Shown here in pieces: positions 6,108 to 40,910 of a stretch of DNA of 64,000 bases. The DNA is taken from NCBI GenBank assembly GCA_903897855.1, contig CAIUDH010000076.1:97643-161642 (forward strand), given 5' to 3'. The notes beneath the pieces were generated by a model, which made no database searches, had not been told where the DNA came from, and saw nothing but the letters and a program-made list of their open reading frames with translations. A program made the position numbers and the translations under genes. This DNA is from an uncultured Bacteroidota bacterium. GTDB lineage: Bacteria; Bacteroidota; Bacteroidia; UKL13-3. Within the stretch, counting starts at the first letter, position 1, and each line of letters starts with the position of its first letter.

Positions 6108-7634
6108 ATGATAAAAACCAGGTGGTGGTGGTATGTCCTTCCATTCGCATTATTGCATCTGCCTTTTGCTTTCAGCCCCATGTGTGTTTGGGATAGCGCC
6201 GTTCAACAACAATTATATAGCACGGCTAATTTTAGTGATGCAAAAAATCTGTTTTTTGATAGCGGTGTTCCCATAAGCTATTTCGAGATGATTGGTTTTG
6301 CCTCCTTGCCATACCCCGTTTTTATGCTTAAAATGTTTTCAATCGTGGTCATGTGTTCCTCAAGCTTAGTTATGGCGGCTGTTTTAGAGGAAATCACGCT
6401 ACTATCTTCACTTGAAATATATTTTATAAGTGTAGGTGCCTTCTTTTTCCCTTCCTATTCAATGTGGTCTCATATTATTATGTCGCCGTATTATTTTTCA
6501 TTGCTTATGTATCTTATTGCTATCCTTCTTTATCTGAAGAAGAAAAGCATATTCATCATCACCCCTATTCTAGTTATCAGCTTCAATATTCAATCCTTCT
6601 TGCCCATCACATATGCGCTCTTACTCATTAATTATGTATATCGGCATCAACATGCTTTGCGTGAAAAAATCATTTCCTATGTTCTTAAAAACGCCATCCT
6701 CCTTTTAATTCCTATAGCATACTATTTGTCAATACGTTATTTTTTTCCCTTGGCCGGATTTTATAAAGTCGATGGATACAACACGTTCAACATTTCTATC
6801 TCGTCCTTGTTTCGAAATTTCAGTATCTCAATAGTGAATACCACCCTTACGCCATTTTATTTATTAGGGAAGTATGCTCTGTCCGATTTTATTAGCTTGT
6901 TCCCAATTGCCCTGATAAGTGCAGCGATTGCATACATCATGTTTAAAACGAGGCTCCTTGCGACAGTTCCAGCAATAATCCAAACTAAACGTCATCTAGG
7001 GTTCTCTATTCTGTTGCTTCTTGCAGCTACTTTTCCTTATGCATTAGTCAATAAGCATGTAACCACCTTTGGTTATGAAACTCGTCATTCTTTATTAATG
7101 ATTATTCCAACGCTGTTAATAATCGTAGTAATGGCCCGATACTTTGGGAAATATCAGGCCCTTTTCTTTCTTCTATTTTCCTTCCTGAGTATCACTATTT
7201 ATTTGAAAAACCAATTACTTTGGGAAAACCGATACATAAAATATCAAGCCATCATTTATCAATTGCAAAAACAACCTTTATTGGACAATGCCAATAACTT
7301 TTTTTTCACCGAAAAAAACAAACACTTTGAGATGCCCGAATATCTGAGGTTTTACGAATGTAATATACTTCTAAAAGAAGCCTATCGTAACGAAAGCAAC
7401 CTTGGCATCAATGAAGAATCAGCTCCACATAACGATTCTTTAATTAACGCATATTCCCAAAAATACATAACAAGAAAAAAGAGTTTATGCTTCGCCGACT
7501 ATACTAAAACAAGTTTGCAGCAGGAGATTGAAATTAGCGATCACTTTGCAGAGGACATCGATGTGTTTTTCGCCTATTACTTCGGTAGTAGAGAGGCGTT
7601 GTTGGAGAAATTAATCACGCTTAAAGTAAAGTAG
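6108..7634 (+). CDS. polytopic inner-membrane protein of unknown function (possibly a GT-C-type glycosyltransferase or polymerase-like protein)
   Basis: 508 aa with roughly 10-12 hydrophobic segments and a soluble C-terminal ~130 aa. It begins 7 nt after the acetyltransferase stop. I recognise no diagnostic motif. Confidence 0.5.
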   Translation: MIKTRWWWYVLPFALLHLPFAFSPMCVWDSAVQQQLYSTANFSDAKNLFFDSGVPISYFEMIGFASLPYPVFMLKMFSIVVMCSSSLVMAAVLEEITLLSSLEIYFISVGAFFFPSYSMWSHIIMSPYYFSLLMYLIAILLYLKKKSIFIITPILVISFNIQSFLPITYALLLINYVYRHQHALREKIISYVLKNAILLLIPIAYYLSIRYFFPLAGFYKVDGYNTFNISISSLFRNFSISIVNTTLTPFYLLGKYALSDFISLFPIALISAAIAYIMFKTRLLATVPAIIQTKRHLGFSILLLLAATFPYALVNKHVTTFGYETRHSLLMIIPTLLIIVVMARYFGKYQALFFLLFSFLSITIYLKNQLLWENRYIKYQAIIYQLQKQPLLDNANNFFFTEKNKHFEMPEYLRFYECNILLKEAYRNESNLGINEESAPHNDSLINAYSQKYITRKKSLCFADYTKTSLQQEIEISDHFAEDIDVFFAYYFGSREALLEKLITLKVK

Positions 7635-7707: not shown

Positions 7708-9468
7708 TTGAGACTTAAATTCGCCCTCTGCTTCTTGAAAACATACCCCATATATTTATTGATTTTGATACTCGCTTTTGTTGCTTGTAAGGGCACAAAA
7801 ACAGCCGCTCGAAAAAAAAATCATGTTATAGAACACCCTTTGAATGAAGCCGACCAGAGTGCATTCGATGCAGCCTTTTATGAGGGGAATAAACAAATGG
7901 TGCTAAGTAACCATACTGAAGCCATCAAACAATTTAAAAAATGTGTCATACTAAACCAGAAGAACGACGCTACGCTCTATTTACTTGCTAAAGAATATAA
8001 TGCATCGCGGCAGTATAACCTTTCCTTGCCCTACGCGCAACAATCCGTAAAAATTAATGATCAAAATATTTGGTACCAGCTGCTCGTAGCCGATAATCTA
8101 AAACATACGGACCAAAATCTTGAAGCGGCAAAAACCTTAGAAAACATCGCTGATAAATTCAAAGTGAACGAATCCTATTATTTTGATGCTGCTGAAAGTT
8201 ATATTGTATCCAAAAAATTTAATGATGCACTCCACTGCCTCGATAAACTTGAAAAAACGGCAGGTGTTAATGAAGATATTTCCTTTAAAAAAGTCGATCT
8301 GTTTCTGAGATTGTCAAAAAAAGATCAAGCTATTAACGAGTTGCAAAAACTAATGGTGGCATTCCCAACAAGAACCCGCTATCAAGTGGCACTGGCAGAA
8401 ATTTATTTTGGTTTCAAGGAAGAAATCAAAGCCATGGAAATGTTAAAACAAGTTTTAGCCAACCAGCCGAATATGCCTGAGGCACATTTGTTATTGGCCA
8501 ATATTTACAGAATCAATGGTGAAAATGAAAAATCTTTTCTCGAATTGAAATTAGTATTTGCGAATCCGGATGCCGACATCAAGCAGAAACTTGAAATACT
8601 TTCCTCCTTCCTACCTTTGCTTGAACATAATTCATCCCTTCGCGCGCATACCTTGGAATTGGCTGGTTTGCTCGTCATTGCACATCCTTCCGATGATGCC
8701 GGCAATATGCTTTATGCCGATATCCTTTACCATGTTGAAAGATACCAAGAAGCGAAAGTGTACTACCTTAAAGCTTTAAATACTAATAAAACAAATTTTA
8801 ATCTATCACGGAATCTAATTCAGTGTGAAGAGCAACTGAACCAATATGAGGAGGCTTTAAAACATGCCACAGAGGCTTTAGAGGCCTTTCCAAATCAGGC
8901 CATCTTCTATTATTATAAAGCCCACGCCGAATTCTTACTAAAAGATTTTACTGCTGCACTCTCCACCTCAAAAACAGGTTTTGAGATGGGTTCCGAGAAT
9001 ACATCACTACTAATACAATTACTATCTATTCTCGCAGATGCCGGCAATGAATTAAAGAACTATGTTGTAAGTGATGACGCCTTTGATAAAATATTAGCGC
9101 TTGATCCCAATAATTTAGAGACATTGAACAATTATTCATATTATTTATCGTTACGAAGGGTAAAGTTAGATATGGCAGAAAAGATGTCCAAGAAAACGCT
9201 AGATATAGACCCTAATAACGCATCCTATCTCGACACTTATGGTTGGATTTTATATCAACAAGAGAAATATGCCGATGCTAAAATATTCATAGAGAAAGCC
9301 TTAGCCCTTGACCCAGCGAATAACGTATTGTTTGAACATTTAGGCGATGTTTCATTCCAGCTTAATGAAACTGAACTCGCCATGACCTACTGGAAAAAGG
9401 CAAAAGAGAATGGAAATATATCACCCGGATTACAAAAAAAAATCAATTCTAAAAAACTGACCGACTAA
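7708..9468 (+). CDS. TPR-repeat lipoprotein
   Basis: Multiple TPR-like repeats run through the protein (…AKVYYLKALNTNK…, …YADAKIFIEKALALDPAN…). It has a lipobox LAFVAC. The track start is TTG 7708. An in-frame TTG at 7735 would give MKTYPIYLLILILAFVAC and would sit downstream of a TATTTTTG box at 7703..7710, so 7735 may be the real start. Confidence 0.75.
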   Translation: MRLKFALCFLKTYPIYLLILILAFVACKGTKTAARKKNHVIEHPLNEADQSAFDAAFYEGNKQMVLSNHTEAIKQFKKCVILNQKNDATLYLLAKEYNASRQYNLSLPYAQQSVKINDQNIWYQLLVADNLKHTDQNLEAAKTLENIADKFKVNESYYFDAAESYIVSKKFNDALHCLDKLEKTAGVNEDISFKKVDLFLRLSKKDQAINELQKLMVAFPTRTRYQVALAEIYFGFKEEIKAMEMLKQVLANQPNMPEAHLLLANIYRINGENEKSFLELKLVFANPDADIKQKLEILSSFLPLLEHNSSLRAHTLELAGLLVIAHPSDDAGNMLYADILYHVERYQEAKVYYLKALNTNKTNFNLSRNLIQCEEQLNQYEEALKHATEALEAFPNQAIFYYYKAHAEFLLKDFTAALSTSKTGFEMGSENTSLLIQLLSILADAGNELKNYVVSDDAFDKILALDPNNLETLNNYSYYLSLRRVKLDMAEKMSKKTLDIDPNNASYLDTYGWILYQQEKYADAKIFIEKALALDPANNVLFEHLGDVSFQLNETELAMTYWKKAKENGNISPGLQKKINSKKLTD

Positions 9469-9473
9469 ATCCA

Positions 9474-10259
9474 ATGAAGTTAAAACATATTATTTTTATT
9501 TTATGCCTGTTTAGTGTAGTATTCCTATCTGCCTGCAAGCAACATAAGGAAATTCAGAGGGCAAAAACAGAGGATAAAGTAATAGAAGTTCCTGTTTCAT
9601 TTTCTTTAGTCGACAGTCTCAACGTACATTCTTATCATTTTAATACAATTTCAGCGAAGATCAAAACCGATTTCAAGAACAATGACGGAAGTGAATTAAG
9701 CTTAATGATCACCTTGAGAGCCATTCACGACTCGGCAATCTGGATGAGCGCGAGTCCGGCACTTGGCATTGAAGCAGCTCGCATTCTTTTCACTAAAGAC
9801 AGTATAAAAATAATGGATAAGATTAATGGAACCTATGCGCGCGAATCGTATCGTTTCCTCAATACGTTTACGAAGGCCGAACTAAGTTTTGAAATGCTAC
9901 AGAATATCTTATTCGGAAATGCCGCGTTTATGAATACCGAACTCACCACTGACAGTGTCACGAAATACTATCAGGCCCATTGCTCGGAGCATAGCATGCA
10001 ACAAGATCTCACCATAACAAAAGCTTTTCGAATTTTTCTAAATACCCTCACCGATAAAACCACCATGGATAAAATTTATATTTCCTATAACGATTTCCAA
10101 TTTGTTGAAGGAGAATATCTCCCCTTCGATTTAAAAATAGAAGCCAGCTCTCAGGGCAAAAATGCAACCCTTAATTTAAATTATACTAACCTATCGGTAA
10201 ATACTCCGTTGGAAATAAAATTTAATATCCCTTCAAGTTATACCAAAATGAAATACTAA
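9474..10259 (+). CDS. lipoprotein, DUF4292-like (family assignment from memory)
   Basis: 261 aa with signal peptide and lipobox (VVFLSAC). It sits between a TPR protein and an M23 peptidase, which is the arrangement I associate with DUF4292 genes in Bacteroidota. Confidence 0.5.
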   Translation: MKLKHIIFILCLFSVVFLSACKQHKEIQRAKTEDKVIEVPVSFSLVDSLNVHSYHFNTISAKIKTDFKNNDGSELSLMITLRAIHDSAIWMSASPALGIEAARILFTKDSIKIMDKINGTYARESYRFLNTFTKAELSFEMLQNILFGNAAFMNTELTTDSVTKYYQAHCSEHSMQQDLTITKAFRIFLNTLTDKTTMDKIYISYNDFQFVEGEYLPFDLKIEASSQGKNATLNLNYTNLSVNTPLEIKFNIPSSYTKMKY

Positions 10260-10262
10260 CGT

Positions 10263-11528
10263 ATGACACCAAGAAACTTAATCGCCTGTTTCCTTATCTT
10301 TACTGTTACGCTTTTAAATGCGCAATCAAGAAAGCAGTTAGAGCAAAAACGCAAACAGAAGCAACTCGAAATTGAACAAACCAAGAACTATCTCAAAGAA
10401 AATAGCAAAAAGCAAAAAAAATCGTTGTATGAGCTGCAAACGCTCGGTCGTCAAATTCAAGTACGACAAGAAATAATAAACACCGCTGCCGGAGAAATAG
10501 ATTTATTGAGCAGTGAGATTGGCTACCTCGAAACCAATATAAAAAAGTTAGAAGAAAATCTTGATGCCTTAAAACGCCAATATGCCGCGATGATTTACGA
10601 AGCATACAAAAACAGGAGTCTGACCGACAAGATGGCTTTTGTTCTTTCTGCCAAAGATTTTAATCAGAGCTATCAACATCTTAACTATCTGCAACAGATC
10701 GGGAAATTTAGTAAACTCAAAGCGGATGAGATTAATTCAACTCAGAACAAATTAAATCAACGTATTGAAGAGCTTACAGGGTCGAAACGAACCAAGGAAG
10801 AATTGGTAAATTCGAGTAAAACAGAGAAAGTGGAACTCGAAGGCGACAAAAAAACAGAGGCCGTAATGTTATCCCAGCTCAAAGGAAAGGAATCACAAAT
10901 GAAAAAAGACCTTCAGATAAAGCTAGTTCAGATAAAACAACTCGATCTGGCCATTTCCAATGCCATCGCCAAAGAAATAGAATCGGCACGCAAGAAAGCG
11001 GAGGAGGAGGCACGTAAGAAGGCTGCTACTGCGTCGAAGAGTACGGACACAAAAACAGAAAGCAAAAAAGAATCTTCCTTTACCAATCGCAACAATACAG
11101 AAGCTGGTAATGCTCTTAGTGCTGATTTTGAAAAAAACAAAAACCGATTACCCTGGCCTGTCGATAAAGGTTACGTCATCCGCCCTTTTGGGGTTCATTC
11201 ACATCCTACTATACCCAATGTACAAACTGAAAATAATGGGGTAGATATTGCCACCAGTGATGGCGCTATTGCAAAATCAATTTTTAAAGGAGAGGTGCGT
11301 GCCGTTTTCCCTGTGCCAGGCATGGGAACCGCTGTTCTGGTGAGCCACGGAAATTATTATTCGGTGTATTGCAAATTACAAACTGTTACCGTTACTGTTG
11401 GGTCAAGGGTAGCACTAGGAAGTCCTATTGGAGTTATTATGAAAAGTGATGATGATGAAAAAACAGAACTCCATTTAGAAATATGGAAAAATACAGAGAA
11501 GCAAAACCCGGAAGCCTGGTTAAGATAA
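10263..11528 (+). CDS. coiled-coil M23 peptidase (EnvC-like murein hydrolase or activator)
   Basis: Signal peptide, ~270 aa of K/E/Q-rich coiled coil, and a C-terminal LytM/M23 domain (GVDIATSDGAIAKSIFKGEVRAV...VLVSHGNYYSVYCKL...LHLEIW). Confidence 0.85.
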   Translation: MTPRNLIACFLIFTVTLLNAQSRKQLEQKRKQKQLEIEQTKNYLKENSKKQKKSLYELQTLGRQIQVRQEIINTAAGEIDLLSSEIGYLETNIKKLEENLDALKRQYAAMIYEAYKNRSLTDKMAFVLSAKDFNQSYQHLNYLQQIGKFSKLKADEINSTQNKLNQRIEELTGSKRTKEELVNSSKTEKVELEGDKKTEAVMLSQLKGKESQMKKDLQIKLVQIKQLDLAISNAIAKEIESARKKAEEEARKKAATASKSTDTKTESKKESSFTNRNNTEAGNALSADFEKNKNRLPWPVDKGYVIRPFGVHSHPTIPNVQTENNGVDIATSDGAIAKSIFKGEVRAVFPVPGMGTAVLVSHGNYYSVYCKLQTVTVTVGSRVALGSPIGVIMKSDDDEKTELHLEIWKNTEKQNPEAWLR

Positions 11529-11533
11529 AAAAA

Positions 11534-12007
11534 CTATCTGCTGATTTCGAGAATCTCTAGTTTCAATTTCCCTGCTGGCACCTCCACTTCAAATTTATCT
11601 CCCACTTTCTTACCCATTAAGGCCGATCCTATGGGCGATTTCATTGAGATTTTTCCATCTTTAAAATCAGCTTCACTCTCAGATACAATTTTAAAGGTCT
11701 GCTCCTTTTTTAATTTGTGGTTCATAAACCGAACTCTGCTCAACACCGTGACTGAACTCAAGTCTAAATCTCTTTCATCAATGACCCGAGCAAGTGCAAT
11801 AATATTCTGTATTCTGATGATACGAGTCTCATTATGAGACATCGCCTCTTTTGCTGCTTCATATTCGGCATTTTCAGATAAATCTCCTTTGTCGCGAGCT
11901 TCAGCCAACGACTGTTTTATGATTTCGCGCTCTACCGATTTAAGGTGTTTTAATTCCTTTTTCAGTTTATCTAAGCCTTCTTGAGTGAAATATTGTAGTT
12001 CTGCCAT
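11534..12007 (-). CDS. greA: transcription elongation factor GreA
   Basis: MAELQYFTQEGLDKLKKELKHLKSVEREIIKQSLAEARDKGDLSENAEYEAAKEA... is the GreA coiled coil, followed by the C-terminal FKBP-like domain. I use the internal ATG at 12007 because the track extension to 12055 runs through a terminator hairpin. Confidence 0.9.
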   Translation of the reverse strand: MAELQYFTQEGLDKLKKELKHLKSVEREIIKQSLAEARDKGDLSENAEYEAAKEAMSHNETRIIRIQNIIALARVIDERDLDLSSVTVLSRVRFMNHKLKKEQTFKIVSESEADFKDGKISMKSPIGSALMGKKVGDKFEVEVPAGKLKLEILEISR

Positions 12008-12032
12008 TGGTAGTTTATTAGAACGTCTATAC

Positions 12033-12071
12033 AAAAAAAGAAACGTCCCGACCATCGAGGCAGGAACGTTT
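12033..12071 (-). terminator. intrinsic terminator or attenuator between the PorV-like gene and greA
   Basis: Minus strand reads AAACGTTCC-N13-GGGACGTTT (9-bp stem with one G-U pair) followed by CTTTTTTT. It ends 25 nt before the greA ATG. Confidence 0.6.
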
Positions 12072-12081
12072 ATTCTTAATG

Positions 12082-12089
12082 CAAAAATA
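12082..12089 (-). promoter_or_regulatory. candidate -7 box TATTTTTG upstream of the greA leader hairpin
   Basis: CAAAAATA on the plus strand equals TATTTTTG on the minus strand. It lies between the PorV-like stop (12124) and the hairpin. Confidence 0.3.
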
Positions 12090-12123
12090 CGTTATTTTAT
12101 TAAAGAAGTAATATTTTATTTTA

Positions 12124-13224
12124 CTATTCGCTTTCTCCTAAATCTATTCGAATACCAAAACTATGGGTTGCACCCAAAATTCGGCTGTCGCGGAAAGAAT
12201 AATCAAATGCCACTAAATTGTCGCTTCCCCCTTTCTTGAGCGGAATATAAATACTAGCTCCTGCCGCAATTCCAGAAAAAGCATTGATGCGTAAAGCAGC
12301 ATCATTAATTTTATCTTCATATTGATATCCTGCACGAAGGGCGAAAATTTTCTTGTAACCATATTCAAACCCAAGTCCAAACTGGTTGTTAGCGTAAGCG
12401 TTTGAAGTAAAGTTTCCAGCAAGGGTGAATCGGTTGTTATAAACACCCGAATCTTGGTCTAGTCTAAGGTCATAAGACACTCCAATATGCAACTGGGTTG
12501 GCAATTGAAAAGTAGCCGACCGTGCTTGTAAAGTACGTTGAATTCCATCCACATCGGTGGCATGGTAAGATAACCCATCTCCAGCAAATGCGCCGTTTAC
12601 CCCAACACTTCTCAACGATATACCCAAATGAATATCACGTCCTTTCACTGCACTTTTAGGCATTAACACTTTTTTTGACTTGGCCGAAAATTGAACACCG
12701 GCATCGATACATCCGGTACGTGCTTTTACATCGCTCGCCCCTGCCTCTGAGATGCCTCTAAAAACAAGACCACAAGAAATGGCGTCCGAGAATTTGTGAC
12801 CATAGCCAATAGCAAAATTACTAAAGCGAGGAGAGAAGGTTCCAATTCCACCCTCAGGATTATTCACATCGGTGCGCATGATATTGCCAAAATTCATTGA
12901 AAATACCGAGAGCCCTATATACGAGGAGGAGCCAATTTTTTGGGCAAGTCCAAATGAATTAATCTTTATATCCGCCAATTTTAGATAGTCGACATAGGAG
13001 AAAGCAATATTGGAACTGTTGATCTGAGTAATACCCGCGATGTTAAGGTTAAATGCTTCCACGCCCTTTACATTGGCTGTGTTAATACCATTCCATCCAC
13101 TACTATTAGCCCATGGATTAATCATCAATTCGGTGGCCCCTGCAGTACCAGTTCGTGCAGGATTTCCTGCCCAACTTATGGCAGCAATACTTAAGGCCGT
13201 AATACTTATTATAATTCGTTTCAT
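12124..13224 (-). CDS. PorV/PorQ-family outer-membrane beta-barrel protein
   Basis: 366 aa. Signal peptide (ALSIAAISWA), then the N-terminal motif TGTAGATELMINPWANSSGWNG, which resembles the PorV/LptO signature. Amphipathic beta-strand pattern throughout, ending in ...SFGIRIDLGESE. Confidence 0.6.
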   Translation of the reverse strand: MKRIIISITALSIAAISWAGNPARTGTAGATELMINPWANSSGWNGINTANVKGVEAFNLNIAGITQINSSNIAFSYVDYLKLADIKINSFGLAQKIGSSSYIGLSVFSMNFGNIMRTDVNNPEGGIGTFSPRFSNFAIGYGHKFSDAISCGLVFRGISEAGASDVKARTGCIDAGVQFSAKSKKVLMPKSAVKGRDIHLGISLRSVGVNGAFAGDGLSYHATDVDGIQRTLQARSATFQLPTQLHIGVSYDLRLDQDSGVYNNRFTLAGNFTSNAYANNQFGLGFEYGYKKIFALRAGYQYEDKINDAALRINAFSGIAAGASIYIPLKKGGSDNLVAFDYSFRDSRILGATHSFGIRIDLGESE

Positions 13225-13269
13225 CTTGTGCTTTTTTAAATGATATGATTTGCTTTTAAAAACTAATTT

Positions 13270-16200
13270 CTAGAATGAATCCAGATCTACTGGTCGCATC
13301 ACTCCCATCCATTTCAATACTTTAACTCCCAAATCGCCACAATCGATATGGATAATATACATCCCACTAGCAATAGGAACAGCACTTCCGTTGTTTAAAT
13401 CCCAGCGGGTTTCAACGAGGTTGTCGTCTTTCTTGATGGTTTTTACCAAATTACCATTTAAGGTATAGATACGAATAGTACATTTTTGGGGCAAATTAGT
13501 GAACTTAACATAAGTGGCTATTTGATCGCCTTCGTAATCATGTGAAGGTGAGAAACCATAGTATGGATTAGGCACTACATTAATTTTTTCTACTCCTTTT
13601 TTAGCAGCCGCTACCGTAAACTGGGTGGCAATCTCTTTGGTGTCAAATTCGTAGTGTGGTCTTCCGTTATTGGTTGTAATCGAAGTTTTTAGGCGTTGAT
13701 ACGGTTTCGTCACACGATATCGAATACGCACATCATTTGGAATAATACCATCTTTCACTGATTTCAATTTCATTCCTGGTGCCAGATAAGACATCATCAC
13801 ATACATACATGAACGATACACTTTTATCATATCGGTAGTGGCGTTGCTAGCTAAAAGTGTTGCGATGCCATTACATTCGTCATACCCGCCAAATTTAAAT
13901 GCACTCGTGCCAATACCAACGGTATCGTCAGTGAAAACATAAACATAATGTTTGCCTCCAATTAAAGGATAGTCGTCTACTTGTGAGAAGGTATTAGAGG
14001 TAGGATTCCAAATCATATCAGCTCCATTTTCTCCCTGCAAATGTGAATCTTCTCCAAAGGCTATGTTTAAACGCTGGCCTGTTTCTATATTAATGGCATA
14101 TCCTGGGAACCATCCTTTTCCATTTCCAGTTCCATCGGCATTACCTTCCTTATCAACAGATTGTGATCTACGAAGTCCTAATTTTACAGCACCTCCAATA
14201 GCATCCGTGGGTTGTTCTGCCTCTTCTAATACAACACAACGTGTCCATTTAGTCTTATCTGAAGTGAACACCAAATCAATACTGGAAAGGTTTTCCATTC
14301 TGTTCTGAGCGGTAGAAGTACTACTATTAAATGCAGGGCCGAAGGTGTTTCCTTTTGTAGCGCTATAGGGCGAATAGGCACATAAACGGTAAGGAGCAAA
14401 AGTGCCTTCGAGTGCTTTTTCATAAACTTGCTGCGGATCTATCATCTCGGTTGCACCCCCGAAGTCACCGTAATAATCATGTAGATAAGGATCATAGCTT
14501 GTGGGTGTTGACCTTATTATTTGTTCGCCTACTTTTCCTGAGCGTATCCAATTGTAAATTGAGACAAAACTCAAATCAACATCCGGAAGGCCCGTAAGCC
14601 ATCTTTGATTTTTGTCACTCCACTCAAAGGATGCCTCAATGAAGCCATTCTTCACCGACTCATCAATACTGAACGCCCAACTTCCGGGATTACTTGCTTG
14701 TTTTATAGCAACACTGATACCCCATTTGGCAATAATTTGTTCAGCTCCAATCGTAATATCCGCATCACTTTTCACCGTATCTCCAGTAGATTGTCTTACA
14801 ATTATCCAGCGACTTGTTGGCCATATAGAATCGCCTTTAACTTTGCTCATTGGGCTAAATTTATTCGCCGGGTCATAGGCAATATAAACTTCAAATTTAT
14901 CGTTGGGTACTTTTAAAGGATCTATAACTTTTATTCTTACGGGGGTAGAACCGCCTTTGTAGATCGGGAACTCCGATTTGCCTTTCGCTAAAATCTCATC
15001 AATCGTTTCTTGAGTTAACTCTAAAGAATTACCTCCATTTCCCCTTCCTTCTAAACGTTTCATTAATGGTCCGGCACCATATTTAGCCAATGAATCGTTG
15101 TCAATACCATTATTCACACTCCAAACTTTATGAGGCGAAACACTTAACGTATTGGTATTTAAACGACCCGCAAGATACTGTTCTGGATCATTTTGGTCAT
15201 TGGTCGCATTGGAGTATGACACAATCTTAAAGCTATAGTTCTTATAATTAACCAAGGCGCTATTCCCTGTGGCAAAGGCATCCGATTTAATCTGAAAAGA
15301 ATGGCGTAAACCAACATTTTCACCGGTAACTTTAAGTATTTTTACAAAATCAGAAACAGTGGGGTCGAATACTTTATTCACTAATCGATCGGCATCATCT
15401 TTAATATCGCACTGAAATATGAGACGCGCTCTATCTGGATTATTCAACTCGGCAGAGGTAACAGAAGCATCTTTTAACTGATAAATTTGATATCCCTGAA
15501 ATTTATATAAAATCGCATTGCCTGCCGATCCTTTCACGATGGCATTGTACTTTTCAACTTTTTGAGTACAATATTTTGATGTTGTATCCGATGATAAATT
15601 CAAGATGAACTCTTGATCTAAAGTTTGAATCGTAAAATCAGGAGATGGAGGCCCATCTGTAATTTCAAAATTGTTATTAAACAACTTCTGCGCTTTATCA
15701 TCAGCTTGCCTTAAGAGTTCAAGTGAACCTGTAGCCCCACCAGAAGATGCTCTTGCCCATACAACTCCAACGGTAACTTCATTACGAGCTCCTGGTAATA
15801 GCTTGAAAGGTCCAGCACTTTGTAAAAATCGACGGTCGCCAGGTTCGTTCCCCGCACTTTTTTCAGTCCAGCTATATCTTCCTGCCGGATCGGTAGTACC
15901 TGGAAACATATAACTGCAGGTATCCGTCCCGCTTCTACCTCTGCCTCCGTAGGTCATCTGAACATTACTTTTCCATATTCCTTTTAAGTAATTATAATAA
16001 TGCTGTGATTTTTCAGGATTTCCAAAGAGGGTAAAATCATTATCATAATATACAAATTTTGCCATTCCTAAAGTATTACCGTTCTCGTCTTTAGGGCCTT
16101 TAAAAAAATCTATCCCTACGCTAGGTGGATTTAAACCATAACCTAAAATTCCATCGTCGTTATCGTCTCCATTATAGCAATAACCTAAACTACGTCCTAC

Positions 16201-17088
16201 ATCACAACCAACATAGTCGTCGGCATAATTTCCTAAATCAGGGTCAGCCCACAGTCCAAAATAACATTTATCCAAAAAATCACTTCCCCTGTTTATAATT
16301 TCGGTCTTATAAAACGTCATGTTATTGATTTCATCGTTTGTCTGAAATGCAAAAGCCATCGTATGAAGTTCTAAGCCAATAGCTAAGGCATCTGTTTCTG
16401 TATGAACATTACCTTTATCATTATAAGCCCACCAGATAGCCATATCTCCTAAGATATTGGGGTAATCGGTGCCTGGCTCATAATCGAGTGATCCTCCAAC
16501 ATTGATATATGGAGCTAAAAAATGAGATATCGAACCTGAACCGAAGTTGAAATTATTTCCCGGCCACGATTTCATATCATCCGTGGTAATATTCTTTTTA
16601 GGATCCAAAAAGTTCTCAATTTCCAAACGGGTAACTTTCCATAACCTATCGTACTCTGTACAAGTATTGGCGCTTACAGAGGCTAACGTATCTAGTGGCC
16701 CAGCAAAAAAGTCCACTCCGTTTTGGCGATAGGTGTTGGCGGCAATCTTTAAGTTGCTACTTCCATCTAGGCCACCTATCCATAAGGAACCAGAAAAGAT
16801 AGAGTTCAATTTCCGCTGATTCGGATCGGTCACCTTTGGAATTTCATATTTGGCAGAATTCAGATCCCACCACATATCGCCCCCATTCAAGATGGTAGTT
16901 CGTACGTTGTTTATATCGAGGATAGCCTGAGCAGTAGGACGAGCACAACCACCTGCCGTTTTCATTAAACTCGATGCATTCTGGTTATTATTGGAGGGTT
17001 TTAATCCAATAACCTCTCTGGCCTGCAGTGCCATGGCAAAAAATGGTATCGTGATTAAGATTATAATTTTTATGTTATTAAGTTTCAT
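13270..17088 (-). CDS. 1272-aa secreted protein of unknown function with a variant T9SS/FlgD-Ig-like C-terminal domain
   Basis: Signal peptide (IPFFAMALQA). No catalytic motif that I recognise. The last ~100 aa read INVVPNPYYG...CTIRIYTLNGNLVKTIKK...RWDLNNGSAVPIASGMYIIHIDCG...KWMGVMRPVDLDSF, which resembles CTD-type sorting domains. Confidence 0.8.
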   Translation of the reverse strand: MKLNNIKIIILITIPFFAMALQAREVIGLKPSNNNQNASSLMKTAGGCARPTAQAILDINNVRTTILNGGDMWWDLNSAKYEIPKVTDPNQRKLNSIFSGSLWIGGLDGSSNLKIAANTYRQNGVDFFAGPLDTLASVSANTCTEYDRLWKVTRLEIENFLDPKKNITTDDMKSWPGNNFNFGSGSISHFLAPYINVGGSLDYEPGTDYPNILGDMAIWWAYNDKGNVHTETDALAIGLELHTMAFAFQTNDEINNMTFYKTEIINRGSDFLDKCYFGLWADPDLGNYADDYVGCDVGRSLGYCYNGDDNDDGILGYGLNPPSVGIDFFKGPKDENGNTLGMAKFVYYDNDFTLFGNPEKSQHYYNYLKGIWKSNVQMTYGGRGRSGTDTCSYMFPGTTDPAGRYSWTEKSAGNEPGDRRFLQSAGPFKLLPGARNEVTVGVVWARASSGGATGSLELLRQADDKAQKLFNNNFEITDGPPSPDFTIQTLDQEFILNLSSDTTSKYCTQKVEKYNAIVKGSAGNAILYKFQGYQIYQLKDASVTSAELNNPDRARLIFQCDIKDDADRLVNKVFDPTVSDFVKILKVTGENVGLRHSFQIKSDAFATGNSALVNYKNYSFKIVSYSNATNDQNDPEQYLAGRLNTNTLSVSPHKVWSVNNGIDNDSLAKYGAGPLMKRLEGRGNGGNSLELTQETIDEILAKGKSEFPIYKGGSTPVRIKVIDPLKVPNDKFEVYIAYDPANKFSPMSKVKGDSIWPTSRWIIVRQSTGDTVKSDADITIGAEQIIAKWGISVAIKQASNPGSWAFSIDESVKNGFIEASFEWSDKNQRWLTGLPDVDLSFVSIYNWIRSGKVGEQIIRSTPTSYDPYLHDYYGDFGGATEMIDPQQVYEKALEGTFAPYRLCAYSPYSATKGNTFGPAFNSSTSTAQNRMENLSSIDLVFTSDKTKWTRCVVLEEAEQPTDAIGGAVKLGLRRSQSVDKEGNADGTGNGKGWFPGYAINIETGQRLNIAFGEDSHLQGENGADMIWNPTSNTFSQVDDYPLIGGKHYVYVFTDDTVGIGTSAFKFGGYDECNGIATLLASNATTDMIKVYRSCMYVMMSYLAPGMKLKSVKDGIIPNDVRIRYRVTKPYQRLKTSITTNNGRPHYEFDTKEIATQFTVAAAKKGVEKINVVPNPYYGFSPSHDYEGDQIATYVKFTNLPQKCTIRIYTLNGNLVKTIKKDDNLVETRWDLNNGSAVPIASGMYIIHIDCGDLGVKVLKWMGVMRPVDLDSF

Positions 17089-17125
17089 AATTAAACTTTT
17101 TAAATAATGTGTCGTTGCTAAAATA

Positions 17126-20100
17126 TTAGAGGTCCTTTCTGCTGTTGAAAATCATACGCACCCCTATTCGGGCTTGACGAGGTAAGGCATAAAGTCCGGG
17201 GTTATTAAGTCGTAATTTGTATTGATCAATAAATGCTTGTTCGTTTATTTGACTTTGTGCTGCACGAATACCATCAGCAGAGGTAAGATAGCCGTCATCG
17301 GTAGGTAGACCTGTGTTACTGTATACGCCGAGCACATTTTGTGTATTTAGGATATTGTTACAAGCAATGTATACATTCAACAGAAACGACTTTTTGCCAT
17401 CCTTGTCAACATTTTCACTTTTGCTTTTATATTTCACAACAAAATTCTTATCCATGGTCACATCAACATATACCTGACCTGGTAAGCGCTGTCCGTTAAG
17501 AGAACCTTGAATTGGATTTCTTGAAACACTACCTCCAATGACTTGAGAAACATTTTTATTCGCTGATGCTGTGTAAGGGGCACCTGAAAATCCTTGCAGT
17601 TGCACATTTAAACCAAAATCTTCGAATACGTTACGGTCTTTCCCTTTCAACTTCATTACAGGACCATCGTAAGGATGCTCTTTATCTGTTTTAAATCGGT
17701 AATCAACACCTATTTTAAAGGTATGACGAAAATCAACATCCAGAGGCTGCAGTGTTTTCAAACTTGGTTTGTTTACGGCGATCAATCCTGCACTGGTAGA
17801 AGCTGAAGAGCCTGTACCATCGGCAAATAGAAGACTGTAATTCGCTACAATATCCATATGTCTGAAGGCATATAAGAAGTATTCTAAACGAAAGGCCTTA
17901 GAGGTAGAAAAATCTTCATTACCAAAAGCGGTATAACTCGTTGGAAAAGCTTGATAAAAGCGCTTTAATTGAATCAAATCGCGAGTCTCCGAGTATGAAG
18001 CAATGAAGCTAATCGCCGAGGCTGGCGTTAACGTTTGCTTGTAGCCTACTTCATAGCTTGTTTTTTTCGAAGGTCTCAAATTGGGATTCGCTAAAGTACC
18101 ATCCAGAGCACGACGTTCGAAATATTGATAGTCATCATTAGTAGCAAAAAAACCTTCCGCTGGCCTTTGACTCAATACATCATAGTTGGCAAAAAATTCC
18201 GCGTCGTCATTAATTGGAAATGAGAACCAAATTCGAGGCATAAAAATCGGAGTCGGAGTATAATCCTGAAACGCATTTGCATCGAGTTTATACTTACCTA
18301 AATCAACCGACGGATTAACCAACCATGGCTGAATACGTCCTTCGTCCTGAGACAATACAGAGGGGTCGGTTAGTACATTCCCCTCCTTATTATACCAAGT
18401 GCTTCCGCTTCTGAAACCCAATAAATTAGGTGACGAACTTTTGTAGGCATCTACATATACTGTATAGTCGCTGCCAATGGTACTTGGTATCTGACTTTGA
18501 TCTTTCCATTCGGCAGCGGTATGAGCAGGAAACAGCAAATAGGGGTCTTTCAAAACTTTAATATTGGCATCAAACTGTTCTGCTCTCAAACCGAGGCGGA
18601 ATTTTATTTCTTTATAGCTAAATTGATCTTGAACCCAAGCTGCGGCATTGATGGGTGCAAATGCTCCAATAGGTCTGTTCGGATCTTCGTTCCAATCTTT
18701 TATGGATGGACGACCTTTGATCACGTTGCCCAAATAATCGTATCCATAAACATCGATGGATTGATTTCCATTATTATACAAGTCATCGGGTGCAAACCAA
18801 GCCAACTTCATGTCTTCTGGTTTCATCGCATTCACATCTATCCATGAATTTTGTGTCACTGGATTTCCGTAAACATCTTTTGCCCCTTTACTAATCAATT
18901 CTTGACGTAAATTCTTGGCAAATACACTTTCGTCGGAGGCATTAAATAGACGATTATAATATACTGTATCTTGAAATACTCCATTGGCATCATAGGCTAA
19001 GATAGGATGTGCAAGATCCAACTCCTCCACAGCCTTATTTGCGAGTGCCGTAGCCCGGCCCCACAAACCAGCAGCAGCAATACTATAGCCGCGTTGTACA
19101 CGTTGTTCGTAGGATAATCCAAATTGCAAATCATGCTTTTTCGATCGATCCGTTACTGGAGCTAAAGACGCTTCACCAATAGCATAAAGGGTGAACTGAT
19201 CAGAGCGGCTTTTACTATAACCACTTGGATATGACCCCACATTGGCCCACATACTATAAACTGAGCTAGGGCCATCGCCATTCATTAAACCTCCATACGC
19301 TTGAACCCAATTCGAATTTCTTATGATTCTACCATACTCATCAAAAACTTGCTGTGTATAATTGGCTGCAATTGGATTTAAATCACTTTTCTGAAAAGTC
19401 ATCGCAGTATCCCCAAAACCAATGGTTTTGTAGTAATCACGTAACTTTACCGATTTGTTATACTGATCTACAAATTCATCCGGTAACTCGTCGGCCTTCT
19501 TACTTACCTTTCCGTAACCTGCTACCTTATAGGTTGTAAACTTACCTATATAACCATAGTCCCAGGTGTTGAAATCATGTCGTGGATCATAATTAGAGCC
19601 CGACACAACGGTATAATCGGCTCTCACAGTATAGAGGGCGTCGGTAACGATTGACTTGTCTTTTTCTTTGTCCTCTTTTTTGTCGGCCCCCGATTTTAAT
19701 TTATGCGTCATACTCACACTAAAACGGTTCGTTAAATTCGTGCTCTCCGAAGCGTTTTTATAATTAAACATCGAGCTTGTGAAACTGTAACCAGCTCCAC
19801 GGCTCCAGCCTCCATTGAGTCCGACTTGTATGTTTACGTTTTTAGATGGCTGAATCGTTAAACTACTGATATATGAAATGCCCGATGACGCAGCATTAAG
19901 CCTGTATTTCACTCGCTCTAAATCGCTTTGGTTGATGTAACTTGCACTCGGCACTAACCCTGTACCTGAAGGACTTGGAGAATTCGGTTTAATTTCAAGC
20001 TCTGCCAACTTCGCATCACTCAATTTATAGATTGGAATCGCAGAAGGACTGCCATCACGCTGATGTACAGCAGAGAAGCCAACCGTATAGCCCAACACCA

Positions 20101-20923
20101 CACGCTCTTTTCCTGGGTCTTGTTTATTGATTACTTTTAACGGTCCTGAGAAATAACCTTGAAACTGTTGATAATTATATCGGTCGAACAGCATGGATGT
20201 TGAATAATCGAATAGATTAACGTAAGCTAAGGTTGGTGATTTAAAAGTTAAATTGATAGCCCCCCCTGTAAAATCGCCATATTGAGCGGGAACGCCACCG
20301 GTAATAACCGAAACTTCGTTCAGTGCGTCAGGAATGAGAGGAATAGAACCGATTACTTTGACTCCATTGATAAAATATCCCGTTTGATTGGCACGTGAGC
20401 CTAAAAATGAGGGGGTTGAGCCATTCTTTGAGATGACCCCTGCAGCAGCCGAAACTAATTTATTAATACTTGTTGCTTTCTGATTTTTAGCTTGATCACC
20501 AGAAAAACGTGTACCAATGTCGCCTTGCTTTACAGGCGGGCTCTGTATTCTGATAATCTCAATTACTTTCCCTTGCCCTTCCAAAGGTTTTGAAATTAGG
20601 GCTGGTTTCATTACCATGACTTGATCATCATTAATTTTGATGCCTTCCAACACCAATTCCATATAGCCTAGTGCCGTAAAGGTAAGGGTATAAACGCCTG
20701 CAGGCAGCGATTTGATATCATAAAAGCCCTTATCGTCGGTATACACATCACCTTTGTAGATGCCATTTAGTTTTGCCACAACGTGAGCATCTTCAATGGG
20801 AATATTTGCTTTTGAATCTCTTAAAAAACCTCTGACAGAGCCATCGGCTAAGGCATTCAAGGCGGTGAAAACAAAGGCTAAAATCAGGACAGCCTTTCTG
20901 CTTATGTGGTAAACCTTATTCAT
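17126..20923 (-). CDS. oversized TonB-dependent-receptor-like outer-membrane protein (CarboxypepD_reg + plug + large barrel)
   Basis: 1265 aa. Signal peptide, a CarboxypepD_reg-like beta-sandwich (VRGFLRDSKANIPIEDAHVV...YTDDKGFYDIKSLPAGVYTLTFTALGY), a plug-like segment (...NEVSVITGGVPAQYGDFTGGAINLTFK), then ~1000 aa of barrel-like sequence. Confidence 0.75.
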   Translation of the reverse strand: MNKVYHISRKAVLILAFVFTALNALADGSVRGFLRDSKANIPIEDAHVVAKLNGIYKGDVYTDDKGFYDIKSLPAGVYTLTFTALGYMELVLEGIKINDDQVMVMKPALISKPLEGQGKVIEIIRIQSPPVKQGDIGTRFSGDQAKNQKATSINKLVSAAAGVISKNGSTPSFLGSRANQTGYFINGVKVIGSIPLIPDALNEVSVITGGVPAQYGDFTGGAINLTFKSPTLAYVNLFDYSTSMLFDRYNYQQFQGYFSGPLKVINKQDPGKERVVLGYTVGFSAVHQRDGSPSAIPIYKLSDAKLAELEIKPNSPSPSGTGLVPSASYINQSDLERVKYRLNAASSGISYISSLTIQPSKNVNIQVGLNGGWSRGAGYSFTSSMFNYKNASESTNLTNRFSVSMTHKLKSGADKKEDKEKDKSIVTDALYTVRADYTVVSGSNYDPRHDFNTWDYGYIGKFTTYKVAGYGKVSKKADELPDEFVDQYNKSVKLRDYYKTIGFGDTAMTFQKSDLNPIAANYTQQVFDEYGRIIRNSNWVQAYGGLMNGDGPSSVYSMWANVGSYPSGYSKSRSDQFTLYAIGEASLAPVTDRSKKHDLQFGLSYEQRVQRGYSIAAAGLWGRATALANKAVEELDLAHPILAYDANGVFQDTVYYNRLFNASDESVFAKNLRQELISKGAKDVYGNPVTQNSWIDVNAMKPEDMKLAWFAPDDLYNNGNQSIDVYGYDYLGNVIKGRPSIKDWNEDPNRPIGAFAPINAAAWVQDQFSYKEIKFRLGLRAEQFDANIKVLKDPYLLFPAHTAAEWKDQSQIPSTIGSDYTVYVDAYKSSSPNLLGFRSGSTWYNKEGNVLTDPSVLSQDEGRIQPWLVNPSVDLGKYKLDANAFQDYTPTPIFMPRIWFSFPINDDAEFFANYDVLSQRPAEGFFATNDDYQYFERRALDGTLANPNLRPSKKTSYEVGYKQTLTPASAISFIASYSETRDLIQLKRFYQAFPTSYTAFGNEDFSTSKAFRLEYFLYAFRHMDIVANYSLLFADGTGSSASTSAGLIAVNKPSLKTLQPLDVDFRHTFKIGVDYRFKTDKEHPYDGPVMKLKGKDRNVFEDFGLNVQLQGFSGAPYTASANKNVSQVIGGSVSRNPIQGSLNGQRLPGQVYVDVTMDKNFVVKYKSKSENVDKDGKKSFLLNVYIACNNILNTQNVLGVYSNTGLPTDDGYLTSADGIRAAQSQINEQAFIDQYKLRLNNPGLYALPRQARIGVRMIFNSRKDL

Positions 20924-21027
20924 ATAATATCATTTAAGTGTGTTCAAGTTTGTTAAGTCGGCAATTTTATCAAATAAAAACAAGCAAAAAAAGTAAAATT
21001 TGTTGATTATTTATCGTGCAATTAACA

Positions 21028-40852: not shown

Positions 40853-40882
40853 GAATACTTCAATAAATTTAATGTACACTTG

Positions 40883-40890: not shown

Positions 40891-40910
40891 CAAATATATC
40901 CTTTACACGC

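What the first reader, a model, noticed from the sequence alone, without database searches (positions are those of the whole stretch)
12124..20923. Tight three-gene envelope operon: giant plug-barrel, 1272-aa orphan CTD protein and a private PorV/PorQ-like barrel (best candidate for an undescribed system)
Three minus-strand genes are separated by only 37 and 45 nt. They are preceded by a 140-nt intergenic region and closed by a strong hairpin plus T-run at 12033..12071, so they look like one transcription unit. Gene 1 (1265 aa) has a CarboxypepD_reg sandwich, a TonB-receptor-type plug and a very large barrel. Gene 2 (1272 aa) has a signal peptide, no motif I can assign to any enzyme or binding family, and a C-terminal beta-sandwich resembling T9SS/FlgD-Ig sorting domains. 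Gene 3 (366 aa) carries the PorV-type N-terminal motif. Canonical PorV is a general shuttle for CTD cargo and normally sits next to the C25-family sortase PorU. Here the neighbour lacks any GHG/Cys peptidase signature. TonB-type barrels normally pair with SusD-like lipoproteins or stand alone. A single cargo with its own PorV paralogue and its own oversized plug-barrel fits neither the Sus nor the core T9SS model, and suggests a dedicated surface-assembly, anchoring or uptake machine. My unverified recollection is that similar TBDT-like / large hypothetical / PorV-PorQ triads are annotated in other FCB-group genomes without an assigned function.
Basis: partly seen in the sequence, partly recalled or inferred. 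Interest (0 to 1): 0.75.

Follow-up and report, generated by a model that had tools for sequence, protein, structure and literature searches.

The report
Conserved TonB-barrel, surface-protein, anchor-barrel operon
Three tightly packed outer-membrane genes, kept together in hundreds of uncultured Bacteroidota species, look like an undescribed cell-surface machine whose central 1272-residue protein has no known relatives.

Summary
Three minus-strand genes sit at the stated coordinates with 37- and 45-nt gaps.

- **Gene 1** is a genuine TonB-dependent transporter (TBDT). It has a CarboxypepD_reg domain, a plug and a predicted TBDT-type barrel. The model matches YddB, FhuA and FusA at Foldseek E about 1e-26. 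It has about 450 extra residues, and it is not a SusC.
- **Gene 2** has a signal peptide and a 1150-residue passenger that is mostly beta. The passenger has no Pfam, NCBIfam or PDB sequence match and only weak fold similarity to CAZyme beta-sandwich domains. Its C-terminal domain (CTD) is an unusually conserved T9SS type-A CTD. That CTD resembles the retained CTDs of PorZ and PorU and carries an invariant ...DLD[ST][FY] tail.
- **Gene 3** passes the PorV/PorQ family model but falls far below the PorV and PorQ ortholog cut-offs.

The order g1-g2-g3 is kept in 50 of 55 evaluable species-level loci, all uncultured Bacteroidota. The gene 2 family has about 7,700 clusters at 50% identity, all unannotated. 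I found no paper describing it.

Most likely, T9SS exports gene 2, gene 3 holds it on the surface by its retained CTD, and it captures or processes a substrate for import by the TBDT. That mechanism is inferred, not shown.

In passing: the "operon terminator" looks like a conserved hairpin in the greA leader.

The parts
20961..20969 (-). Candidate Bacteroidetes-type -7 promoter box (TAAAATTGC), 46 nt upstream of the gene 1 ATG
   Evidence: Sequence read. The relaxed motif TAnn[AT]TT[GA]C occurs in 24 of 53 orthologous upstream regions, clustered at -46 to -57. It occurs in 10 of 64 regions upstream of g2 and 0 of 64 upstream of g3. Weak evidence.
17126..20923 (-). Gene 1: 1265-aa TonB-dependent transporter-like protein (signal peptide, CarboxypepD_reg, TonB-box-like strand, plug, TBDT-type barrel with about 450 extra residues)
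   Evidence: ORF. Pfam. AF2 model pLDDT 87, pTM 0.82. Foldseek against PDB: YddB 9.8e-26, also FhuA, FptA, PhuR, FusA, TbpA and BtuB, TM-score on target 0.6-0.79. Many homologs carry PF07715 plus PF00593.
20612..20839 (-). Gene 1 N-terminal CarboxypepD_reg domain (aa 29-104)
   Evidence: Pfam PF13620, 45.7 bits, E 8.6e-12.
20261..20506 (-). Gene 1 plug domain (aa 140-221), preceded by a TonB-box-like segment KVIEIIRIQ
   Evidence: Pfam PF07715, 24.4 bits, cut-off 23.9. The alignment of orthologs shows an alternating-hydrophobic segment before the plug.
13270..17088 (-). Gene 2: 1272-aa secreted protein (signal peptide, disordered linker, about 1150-aa mostly-beta passenger of unknown family, type-A CTD)
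   Evidence: ORF, translation. No Pfam hit, including fragments and family consensus. No PDB profile hit. AF2 pLDDT 83. Only weak Foldseek hits, E about 2e-5, TM at most 0.23. Family size: more than 5,241 hits and 7,692 clusters at 50% identity.
13270..13602 (-). Gene 2 C-terminal domain (last 110 aa plus stop): T9SS type-A CTD of the PorZ/PorU-like kind, with the conserved tail ...GVMRPVDLDSF
   Evidence: TIGR04183 26.3 bits (cut-off 23) when scanned alone. PorZ-CTD region hit in 20 of 20 orthologs (best 2.4e-10), TIGR04183 in 19 of 20, PorU-CTD region in 17 of 20. Pfam Por_Secre_tail in 13 of 20. Column identity 69%. The CTD is more conserved than the passenger, 0.62 against 0.53.
12124..13224 (-). 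Gene 3: 366-aa PorV/PorQ-family outer-membrane barrel of a distinct subfamily
   Evidence: NF033709 104.8 bits (cut-off 90). PorV ortholog model 55.8 against 250, PorQ 45.4 against 220. A profile of 35 orthologs hits F. johnsoniae PorV 6h3i_F at E 3.5e-15 as the only significant PDB match.
12033..12071 (-). Hairpin plus U-run: intrinsic terminator after gene 3, also positioned as a 5' leader element of greA
   Evidence: dG -17.5 kcal/mol, z -3.8. An equivalent hairpin plus T-run is present in 55 of 64 orthologous g3-greA spacers. In 30 of those 55 a strict TAnnTTTG box lies within 25 nt upstream of the hairpin foot.

Best explanation
The three genes form one transcription unit that encodes an outer-membrane complex.

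[quoted passage not shown] Ordinary cargo loses that domain. Here it is retained and docks onto the dedicated PorV/PorQ-family barrel (gene 3), as PorU is held by PorV and PorZ by PorQ. This displays the 130-kDa beta-rich passenger on the cell surface.

There the passenger works with the co-encoded TonB-dependent transporter (gene 1). It would act as a substrate-capturing or substrate-processing partner, in the role SusD, surface glycan-binding proteins, TbpB or BtuG play for their transporters. The substrate is possibly a glycan or another polymer. The transporter then imports it using TonB energy.

Shown: gene order and its conservation; the TBDT fold of gene 1; PorV/PorQ-family membership of gene 3; the type-A, PorZ/PorU-like and unusually conserved CTD of gene 2.

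Inferred: T9SS dependence, CTD retention, g2-g3 docking, g1-g2 cooperation, the import direction and the substrate.
For: **Operon and conservation**
- Gaps are 37 and 45 nt in the window. Median gaps are about 14 and 48 nt in orthologous loci, and the triad is present in 50 of 55 evaluable loci.
- The same order is found in a 3.79-Mb contig, a 2.11-Mb chromosome-size record and a 1.19-Mb contig.
- A promoter-like box precedes g1 only.

**Gene 1**
- It has the TBDT fold with a plug and a TonB-box-like segment.
- It is not SusC: TIGR04056 did not appear in the NCBIfam scan.

**Gene 3**
- It is a PorV/PorQ-family member below both ortholog cut-offs and homologous to solved PorV.

**Gene 2 CTD**
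- It best matches the CTD regions of PorZ (20 of 20 orthologs), type-A CTDs (19 of 20) and PorU (17 of 20). PorZ (5m11) is one of only two weak PDB profile hits, at E 0.21.
- It is more conserved than the passenger and carries an invariant C-terminal extension. An ordinary type-A CTD in the same window lacks that extension.
- Published principle: the PorU CTD stays bound to PorV and the PorZ CTD to PorQ, and cognate PorV-like barrels may protect CTDs from cleavage (PMC10202324). FadL-family BamG similarly binds the surface lipoprotein BamH (PMC12578637 and PMC12611786).

**Other**
- Extra, lone gene 2 paralogs keep the same CTD tail but have no barrels of their own. This fits shared use of one anchor.
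- The window encodes other T9SS cargo, so the organism has a T9SS.
- The passenger shows weak fold similarity to beta-sandwich domains of glycan-active enzymes.
Against: - There is no direct evidence for any protein-protein contact, for CTD retention or for import.
- Foldseek matches for gene 2 are weak (TM at most 0.23, rmsd 9-14 Å) and cover only non-catalytic-type domains. A glycan link is therefore only a hint.
- No riboswitch or recognisable nutrient-responsive element lies upstream.
- The locus sits among housekeeping genes (2-hydroxyacid dehydrogenase upstream; greA-HIT-ruvC downstream; skp-murI nearby in some genomes). Its very high sequence conservation is more typical of a core envelope machine than of a nutrient-specific uptake system.
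- Copy numbers of g1, g2 and g3 are not strictly matched. There are second g1 or g2 copies in several loci and a second g3-like hit in one.
- Whether a canonical PorV or PorQ exists in the same genome was not tested.
Confidence: 0.45

Rival explanations
1. T9SS accessory or attachment-type module. Gene 2 and gene 3 would be a lineage-specific functional analogue of PorZ/PorQ or PorU/PorV, acting on other T9SS cargo or on surface glycolipid (delivery or attachment). The TBDT-like barrel would serve as a platform or regulator rather than as a nutrient importer.
For: The gene 2 CTD is closest to the PorZ and PorU CTDs. The gene order, large CTD protein then PorV-family barrel, mirrors porU-porV (my own knowledge of F. 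johnsoniae and P. gingivalis loci). The locus has core-like conservation and housekeeping synteny. Two T9SS components are encoded at the bamA locus (PMC12611786), and skp-murI lie just upstream of the triad in some genomes.
Against: The passenger has no similarity to the C25 peptidase of PorU or to the beta-propellers of PorZ by HMM or Foldseek. No known attachment complex contains a TBDT. Lone extra gene 2 paralogs are hard to explain for a machine component.
Confidence: 0.17
2. Self-contained export and assembly route. The TBDT-like barrel would act outward, as proposed for Myxococcus Oar with PopC. It would translocate or assemble gene 2 independently of the SprA translocon, and gene 3 would anchor it.
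For: Gene 1 shares the CarboxypepD_reg-plug-barrel layout of Oar-type TBDTs (plus my own knowledge of Gómez-Santos et al. 2019). The g1-g2 coupling is very tight, median gap about 14 nt. The CTD ends in an aromatic residue, like a beta-signal.
Against: The CTD matches T9SS type-A models and the organism has other T9SS cargo, so the known route suffices. A folded 130-kDa beta-rich protein would not pass a plugged barrel of ordinary TBDT size. The plug and TonB-box-like segment are conserved as in importers.
Confidence: 0.08
3. Structural surface layer, or an envelope-integrity or biogenesis complex with no transport role. Gene 2 would be an abundant surface coat or canopy protein held by two barrels.
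For: The protein is large, beta-rich and multi-domain. It is present in streamlined 1.2-2.1-Mb-contig aquatic genomes and sits in a housekeeping neighbourhood. There is a precedent of large extracellular canopies on Bacteroidota outer-membrane machines.
Against: Identity of 45-50% across orders, with more than 150 invariant positions including many Asp, Glu, Arg and His, is atypical for coat proteins or adhesins and suggests a binding or catalytic site. A plug-bearing TBDT is an odd anchor.
Confidence: 0.12
4. The three genes are merely neighbours without a joint function.
For: No experimental link exists between them. Some gene 2 paralogs stand alone.
Against: The order and strand are kept in 50 of 55 loci from species whose gene 2 proteins are only 37-48% identical, with short gaps. 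The exceptions are extra gene 2 copies or second copies. L053 is a lone copy in a MAG whose triad is in L032, L001 is a lone copy in the genome of L004, and L083 has the triad adjacent.
Confidence: 0.03

Closest known systems
PorU-PorV and PorZ-PorQ pairs of the T9SS attachment complex (P. gingivalis, F. johnsoniae)
   Same: A large secreted protein with a type-A CTD is encoded with a PorV/PorQ-family barrel. The CTD resembles those of PorZ and PorU, which are retained and serve as the anchor (PMC10202324).
   Different: The passenger is unrelated to the C25 sortase or to the PorZ propellers. The barrel is below the PorV and PorQ ortholog cut-offs. A TBDT is co-encoded, which no attachment complex has. 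The CTD has an extra conserved ...DLD[ST][FY] tail.
SusC/SusD-type and other TBDT plus surface-partner systems (SusCD, RagAB, BtuB-BtuG, TbpA-TbpB)
   Same: A TBDT is co-encoded and tightly coupled with a large surface-exposed partner. The N-terminal CarboxypepD_reg extension is as in Bacteroidota TBDTs.
   Different: Gene 1 does not match the SusC/RagA signature model. The partner is not a lipoprotein and not SusD-like. It would be delivered by T9SS and tethered through a separate barrel. There are no adjacent CAZymes or regulators as in a PUL.
SprB-SprF, PG1035-PorP (type-B CTD cargo with cognate PorP/SprF barrels) and BamH-BamG
   Same: A dedicated small outer-membrane barrel is encoded with, or bound to, one specific surface protein (PMC10202324; PMC12578637; PMC12611786).
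   Different: Here the CTD is type A, not type B. The barrel is PorV/PorQ-family, not PorP/SprF. BamH is a lipoprotein bound by its N-terminus.
Oar-type TBDT of Myxococcus xanthus (PopC secretion)
   Same: The CarboxypepD_reg plus plug plus barrel architecture, with a functional link to a secreted protein (my own knowledge).
   Different: No sequence-level assignment to an Oar-type family was obtained. Gene 2 carries its own T9SS signal. Outward transport is unproven even for Oar.

Membership tests
TonB-dependent transporter (gene 1) | N-terminal plug domain inside the barrel | tested here: met
   Pfam PF07715 24.4 bits against cut-off 23.9. Plug motifs are conserved in 73 homologs. The plug region is modelled.
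TonB-dependent transporter (gene 1) | TBDT-type (22-stranded) beta-barrel | tested here: met
   AF2 pLDDT 87. Foldseek E 1e-26 to 1e-20 and TM-score on target 0.6-0.79 to YddB, FhuA, BtuB and others. This is a prediction, not an experiment. The strand count was not read from coordinates.
TonB-dependent transporter (gene 1) | TonB box and energy dependence on TonB | tested here: inconclusive
   An alternating-hydrophobic segment lies before the plug (KVIEIIRIQ; family consensus LxxVxVxxYKxPLI). Dependence on TonB is not testable here.
SusC/RagA subfamily (gene 1) | Match to the SusC/RagA signature model and an adjacent SusD-like lipoprotein gene | tested here: not met
   No TIGR04056 or other SusC model appears in the NCBIfam scan at E<=0.01. 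Neither neighbour has a SusD family hit.
PorV/PorQ family (gene 3) | Score above the family model cut-off | tested here: met
   NF033709 104.8 bits against cut-off 90, covering aa 28-361. The ortholog profile hits PorV 6h3i_F at E 3.5e-15.
PorV proper (gene 3) | Ortholog-level score; neighbour is PorU | tested here: not met
   NF033710 55.8 bits against cut-off 250. The upstream gene matches PorU only in its CTD, 15.6 bits against 420.
PorQ proper (gene 3) | Ortholog-level score | tested here: not met
   NF033711 45.4 bits against cut-off 220.
T9SS type-A CTD cargo (gene 2) | Sec signal peptide plus a C-terminal type-A sorting domain | tested here: met
   The signal peptide was read from the sequence. 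TIGR04183 scores 21.4 bits full-length (below cut-off 23) but 26.3 bits for the isolated CTD. 19 of 20 orthologs match. NCBI names several orthologs 'T9SS type A sorting domain-containing protein'.
T9SS type-A CTD cargo (gene 2) | Secretion depends on the T9SS; fate of the CTD (cleaved or retained) | not testable with these tools
   Needs genetics and proteomics.
PorU sortase (gene 2) | C25-type cysteine peptidase domain | tested here: not met
   No Peptidase_C25 or NF033707 match outside the CTD. No PorU among the Foldseek or PDB-profile hits.
PorZ (gene 2) | Two beta-propellers plus CTD; ortholog-level score | tested here: not met
   NF052228 23-27 bits against cut-off 260, CTD region only. 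No propeller hits in Foldseek.
Glycoside hydrolase or phosphorylase (gene 2) | A recognisable catalytic domain such as the (alpha/alpha)6 barrel of GH116, GH94 or GH15 | tested here: not met
   The model is almost all beta. Foldseek similarity is weak and partial, TM at most 0.23. There is no Pfam GH family.

The most novel reading that the evidence does not exclude
The triad is an autonomous outer-membrane machine of a new kind. In this reading the TonB-powered barrel works outward, or as an assembly platform, for its own 130-kDa passenger, which a private PorV-like barrel then locks in place. That would make it a dedicated secretion and assembly pathway, or an essential envelope-biogenesis device, specific to abundant uncultured aquatic Bacteroidota, rather than a nutrient importer.
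Probability: 0.1. Interest if true: 0.9.

Novelty: new variant of a known kind. Interest (0 to 1): 0.68.

Why it matters
Gene 2 heads a very large protein family: about 7,700 clusters at 50% identity and at least 597 species-level genomes. The family has no Pfam, NCBIfam or PDB relative and no literature that I could find. It is nevertheless 45-50% identical across Bacteroidota orders and is retained in assemblies from uncultured freshwater and marine Flavobacteriales and relatives (contigs of 1.2-2.1 Mb).

If the model holds, it adds a third cognate pair of CTD protein and PorV-like barrel to T9SS biology. It also adds a new way of equipping a TonB-dependent transporter with a surface partner: T9SS-delivered and barrel-tethered, rather than a lipoprotein. 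This bears on how abundant aquatic Bacteroidota acquire substrates, and on the open question of how some T9SS CTDs escape cleavage.

It also gives a clear experimental handle. There are three genes and one operon, with predicted structures of good confidence for the two large proteins.

Tried and rejected
- **Gene 2 as PorU, PorZ, a protease or a glycoside hydrolase.** Rejected: there are no HMM, PDB-profile or convincing fold matches.
- **Fragment and family-consensus scans of gene 2 against Pfam at E<=5.** Only noise.
- **Foldseek of gene 2 against viral BFVD.** Nothing meaningful.
- **Gene 1 as SusC.** Rejected.
- **Gene 1 as an oversized barrel.** Rejected: ordinary TBDT fold with extra residues.
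- **Riboswitch or other Rfam element upstream of the operon**, in the window and four orthologous loci. None found.
- **Sigma-70 consensus scan.** No enrichment over shuffles, and not the right promoter type for Bacteroidota.
- **Context of lone gene 2 paralogs as a functional clue.** Unrelated neighbours: dapA, a TPR protein, another CTD protein.
- **Search for distant PorV-like paralogs** in the window and 84 loci with a gene 3 HMM. None found.
- **Attempts to find a cultured or characterised host.** Top hits from three homolog searches, the genome scan and a cluster look-up are all MAGs or metagenomes named 'hypothetical'.
- **Literature searches for the triad.** Nothing found.
- **One Pfam scan of the whole alignment A1** failed on size.
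Full report
**Observation**

The coordinates give gaps of 37 and 45 nt and a 140-nt upstream spacer, and I read the junctions directly.

A hairpin with dG -17.5 kcal/mol (z -3.8; none of 200 shuffles folds as well), followed by a U7 run, lies at about 12033-12071. The flanking genes are housekeeping. A 2-hydroxyacid dehydrogenase, CorA, a LOG-family protein and AspRS lie upstream. greA lies downstream.

**Gene 1**

Pfam finds CarboxypepD_reg (aa 29-104) and a plug (aa 140-221, just above the cut-off). No SusC/RagA model appears in the NCBIfam scan. Full-length homologs (33-84% identity) frequently carry PF07715 plus PF00593.

An AF2 model of aa 110-1265, built on 73 sequences, reached pLDDT 87 and pTM 0.82. 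Its Foldseek hits are classical TonB-dependent transporters: YddB at 9.8e-26, then FhuA, FptA, PhuR, FusA, TbpA and BtuB, with TM-score on target 0.6-0.79.

So gene 1 is a true TBDT fold. Its unusual size comes from about 450 extra residues outside the barrel strands, probably long loop insertions, rather than from a bigger barrel. An alternating-hydrophobic, TonB-box-like segment precedes the plug across the family.

**Gene 3**

Gene 3 passes the NCBIfam PorV/PorQ family model (104.8 bits, cut-off 90). It is far below the ortholog models for PorV (55.8 against 250) and PorQ (45.4 against 220). A profile of 35 orthologs finds F. johnsoniae PorV (6h3i_F) at E 3.5e-15 as the only significant PDB match. 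It is therefore a third, distinct subfamily of PorV-like barrels.

**Gene 2: passenger**

Gene 2 has a signal peptide, a disordered linker and a passenger of about 1150 aa. The passenger has no Pfam or NCBIfam family, even when scanned as fragments or as the family consensus. A profile search finds no PDB sequence relative.

The AF2 model (72 sequences, pLDDT 83) is almost entirely beta. Foldseek gives only weak, partial matches (E about 2e-5, TM at most 0.23). They are to enzymes that contain a beta-supersandwich domain (GH116, GH94, GH15-type, OpgD, heparinase II), and none is to PorU, PorZ or a protease. The viral library adds nothing.

The alignment shows more than 150 invariant positions. 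They include a D-x-D-L-G...DD..G.D cluster, an RR pair and several His and Glu residues. This suggests a defined binding or catalytic site.

**Gene 2: C-terminal domain**

The last 110 aa form a T9SS type-A CTD.
- Scanned alone, it passes TIGR04183 (26.3 bits, cut-off 23).
- Among 20 orthologs, the best matches are the CTD regions of PorZ (20 of 20, best 2.4e-10), generic type-A CTDs (19 of 20) and PorU (17 of 20).
- PorZ (5m11) is also one of only two weak PDB profile hits, at E 0.21.
- The CTD is more conserved than the passenger (0.62 against 0.53 column homogeneity; 69% column identity).
- It ends in an invariant ...D-[LF]-D-[ST]-[FY] extension. An ordinary type-A cargo in the same window lacks that extension.

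PorU and PorZ are the two T9SS proteins known to keep their CTDs and be held by PorV and PorQ. A review explicitly suggests that cognate PorV-like barrels protect CTDs from cleavage (PMC10202324).

**Conservation**

The gene 2 family is very large. One search gave more than 5,241 hits. An exhaustive search gave 7,692 clusters at 50% identity with E<=1e-3 and 2,665 with E<=1e-30. The genome scan found at least 597 species-level genomes.

The 80 best genome loci are all Bacteroidota MAGs, labelled Flavobacteriales, Cryomorphaceae, Sphingobacteriales, Bacteroidales and similar. All source names are 'hypothetical protein' or 'T9SS type A sorting domain-containing protein'.

tblastn of the three window proteins on these loci shows g1-g2-g3 in the same order and strand in 50 of 55 loci with enough flanking DNA. 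Median gaps are about 14 and 48 nt. The five exceptions are extra gene 2 copies. Some sit in genomes that also have the triad: L001 with L004, and L053 with L032. L083 has the triad adjacent. Lone copies keep the same CTD tail but have unrelated neighbours.

The triad also occurs in chromosome-scale assemblies with the same flanks (2-hydroxyacid dehydrogenase ... greA-HIT-ruvC). Some genomes have a second TBDT paralog upstream.

A relaxed Bacteroidetes -7 box clusters 46-57 nt upstream of g1 in 24 of 53 loci. It is found upstream of g3 in none of 64. This is consistent with one promoter. No Rfam element lies upstream.

**Interpretation**

The best-supported model has three steps.
1. Gene 2 is a T9SS cargo.
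2. Its CTD is retained and docked on the private PorV-like barrel (gene 3), which displays the passenger on the surface.
3. The passenger cooperates with the co-translated TBDT (gene 1), capturing or processing a substrate for TonB-powered import.

This would be a barrel-tethered, T9SS-delivered counterpart of SusD, surface glycan-binding proteins, TbpB or BtuG.

The identities of the parts and their linkage are shown. T9SS dependence, CTD retention, the contacts, the transport direction and the substrate are inferred. I give the full model 0.45.

The rivals are:
- an attachment-complex-like T9SS accessory module (0.17);
- a structural or envelope-biogenesis complex (0.12);
- an Oar-like outward route (0.08);
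- mere neighbours (0.03).

The housekeeping synteny, the very high conservation and the lack of nutrient-type regulation argue against a simple nutrient system. They keep the more novel readings alive.

**Comparison and novelty**

Each component belongs to a known kind: a TBDT, a type-A CTD cargo and a PorV/PorQ-family barrel. The combination does not fit any described system.
- It fails the membership tests for SusCD, PorU-PorV and PorZ-PorQ.
- The passenger is an unmodelled family.
- Six literature searches found no description of it.

I rate it a new variant of a known kind, with interest 0.68.

**Side finding**

g3 is followed by greA in 64 of 73 loci that hold both genes. In 55 of those 64, the spacer holds a strong hairpin plus T-run whose sequence varies while the structure is kept. 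In 30 of the 55 a strict TAnnTTTG -7 box lies within 25 nt upstream of the hairpin foot. The hairpin would then be the very 5' end of the greA mRNA. That would make it a conserved promoter-proximal terminator or attenuator, reminiscent of the E. coli greA leader (my own knowledge). It probably doubles as the terminator of the triad operon.

Noticed in passing
window 12007-12090 (minus strand); loci L002-L085, g3-greA spacers: The hairpin plus U-run after gene 3 lies just downstream of a Bacteroidetes -7 box (TAttTTTG, about 12088-12081) and upstream of the true greA ATG (12007). The same arrangement (a -7 box, then a hairpin with a T-run, then greA) recurs in orthologous loci. A hairpin is present in 55 of 64 spacers, and a strict box lies within 25 nt upstream of it in 30 of those 55. 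The hairpin sequences vary while the structure is kept. This looks like a conserved greA leader terminator or attenuator, comparable to the E. coli greA leader (GraL).
   Followed up: partly
window 11534-12055 (-): ORF-listing runs greA from an ATG at 12055 that lies inside the hairpin. The likely real start is the ATG at 12007, giving 157 aa, the length of the greA genes called in other loci.
   Followed up: partly
window 13270-13302 (-), and all gene 2 orthologs: The gene 2 CTD carries an invariant C-terminal extension ...GVMR-x-x-D-[LF]-D-[ST]-[FY]-COOH beyond the usual last strand of a type-A CTD. The terminal aromatic residue resembles an outer-membrane-protein beta-signal. Its role is unknown.
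   Followed up: partly
L002/L003 1307-4993; L004 2258-5944; L043; L050: Several genomes carry a second, 33-36% identical paralog of the gene 1 TBDT just upstream, with skp(OmpH)-murI before it. A published note says two T9SS components are encoded at the bamA locus (PMC12611786).
   Followed up: no
L018 13222-17106; L029 13331-17374; L083 2009-6045; L056 13362-14024: Second copies of gene 2 lie immediately downstream of the triad in L018 and L029, and next to it in L083. In L056 a second, partial gene 3-like hit directly follows gene 3. Copy numbers of the three parts are therefore not fixed.
   Followed up: no
window 36249-39590 (-) and 51998-57505 (+): Two other T9SS cargo genes are present. 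One is a 1113-aa Ig/PKD-repeat protein with an ordinary type-A CTD. The other is an 1835-aa protein with IgGFc-binding-like and PKD domains and a type-B (CHU_C) CTD. The organism therefore has a working T9SS repertoire.
   Followed up: partly
window 6108-7634 (+): A 508-aa ORF with no Pfam family sits upstream of a TPR / DUF4292 / M23-peptidase gene row (7708-11528).
   Followed up: no
window 39419-40912 (-) and 36249-39590 (-); 40794-42029 (+): The listed ORFs overlap by about 170 nt (polysaccharide-synthesis flippase-like against the CTD protein) and by about 120 nt on the opposite strand. These are probably start-codon over-extensions by the mechanical ORF caller.
   Followed up: no
window 17126-20923 (-), protein P0121: The identical gene 1 protein is found on at least 15 contigs from several independent metagenome samples. 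The source organism is therefore a recurrent, uncultured environmental Bacteroidota population.
   Followed up: no
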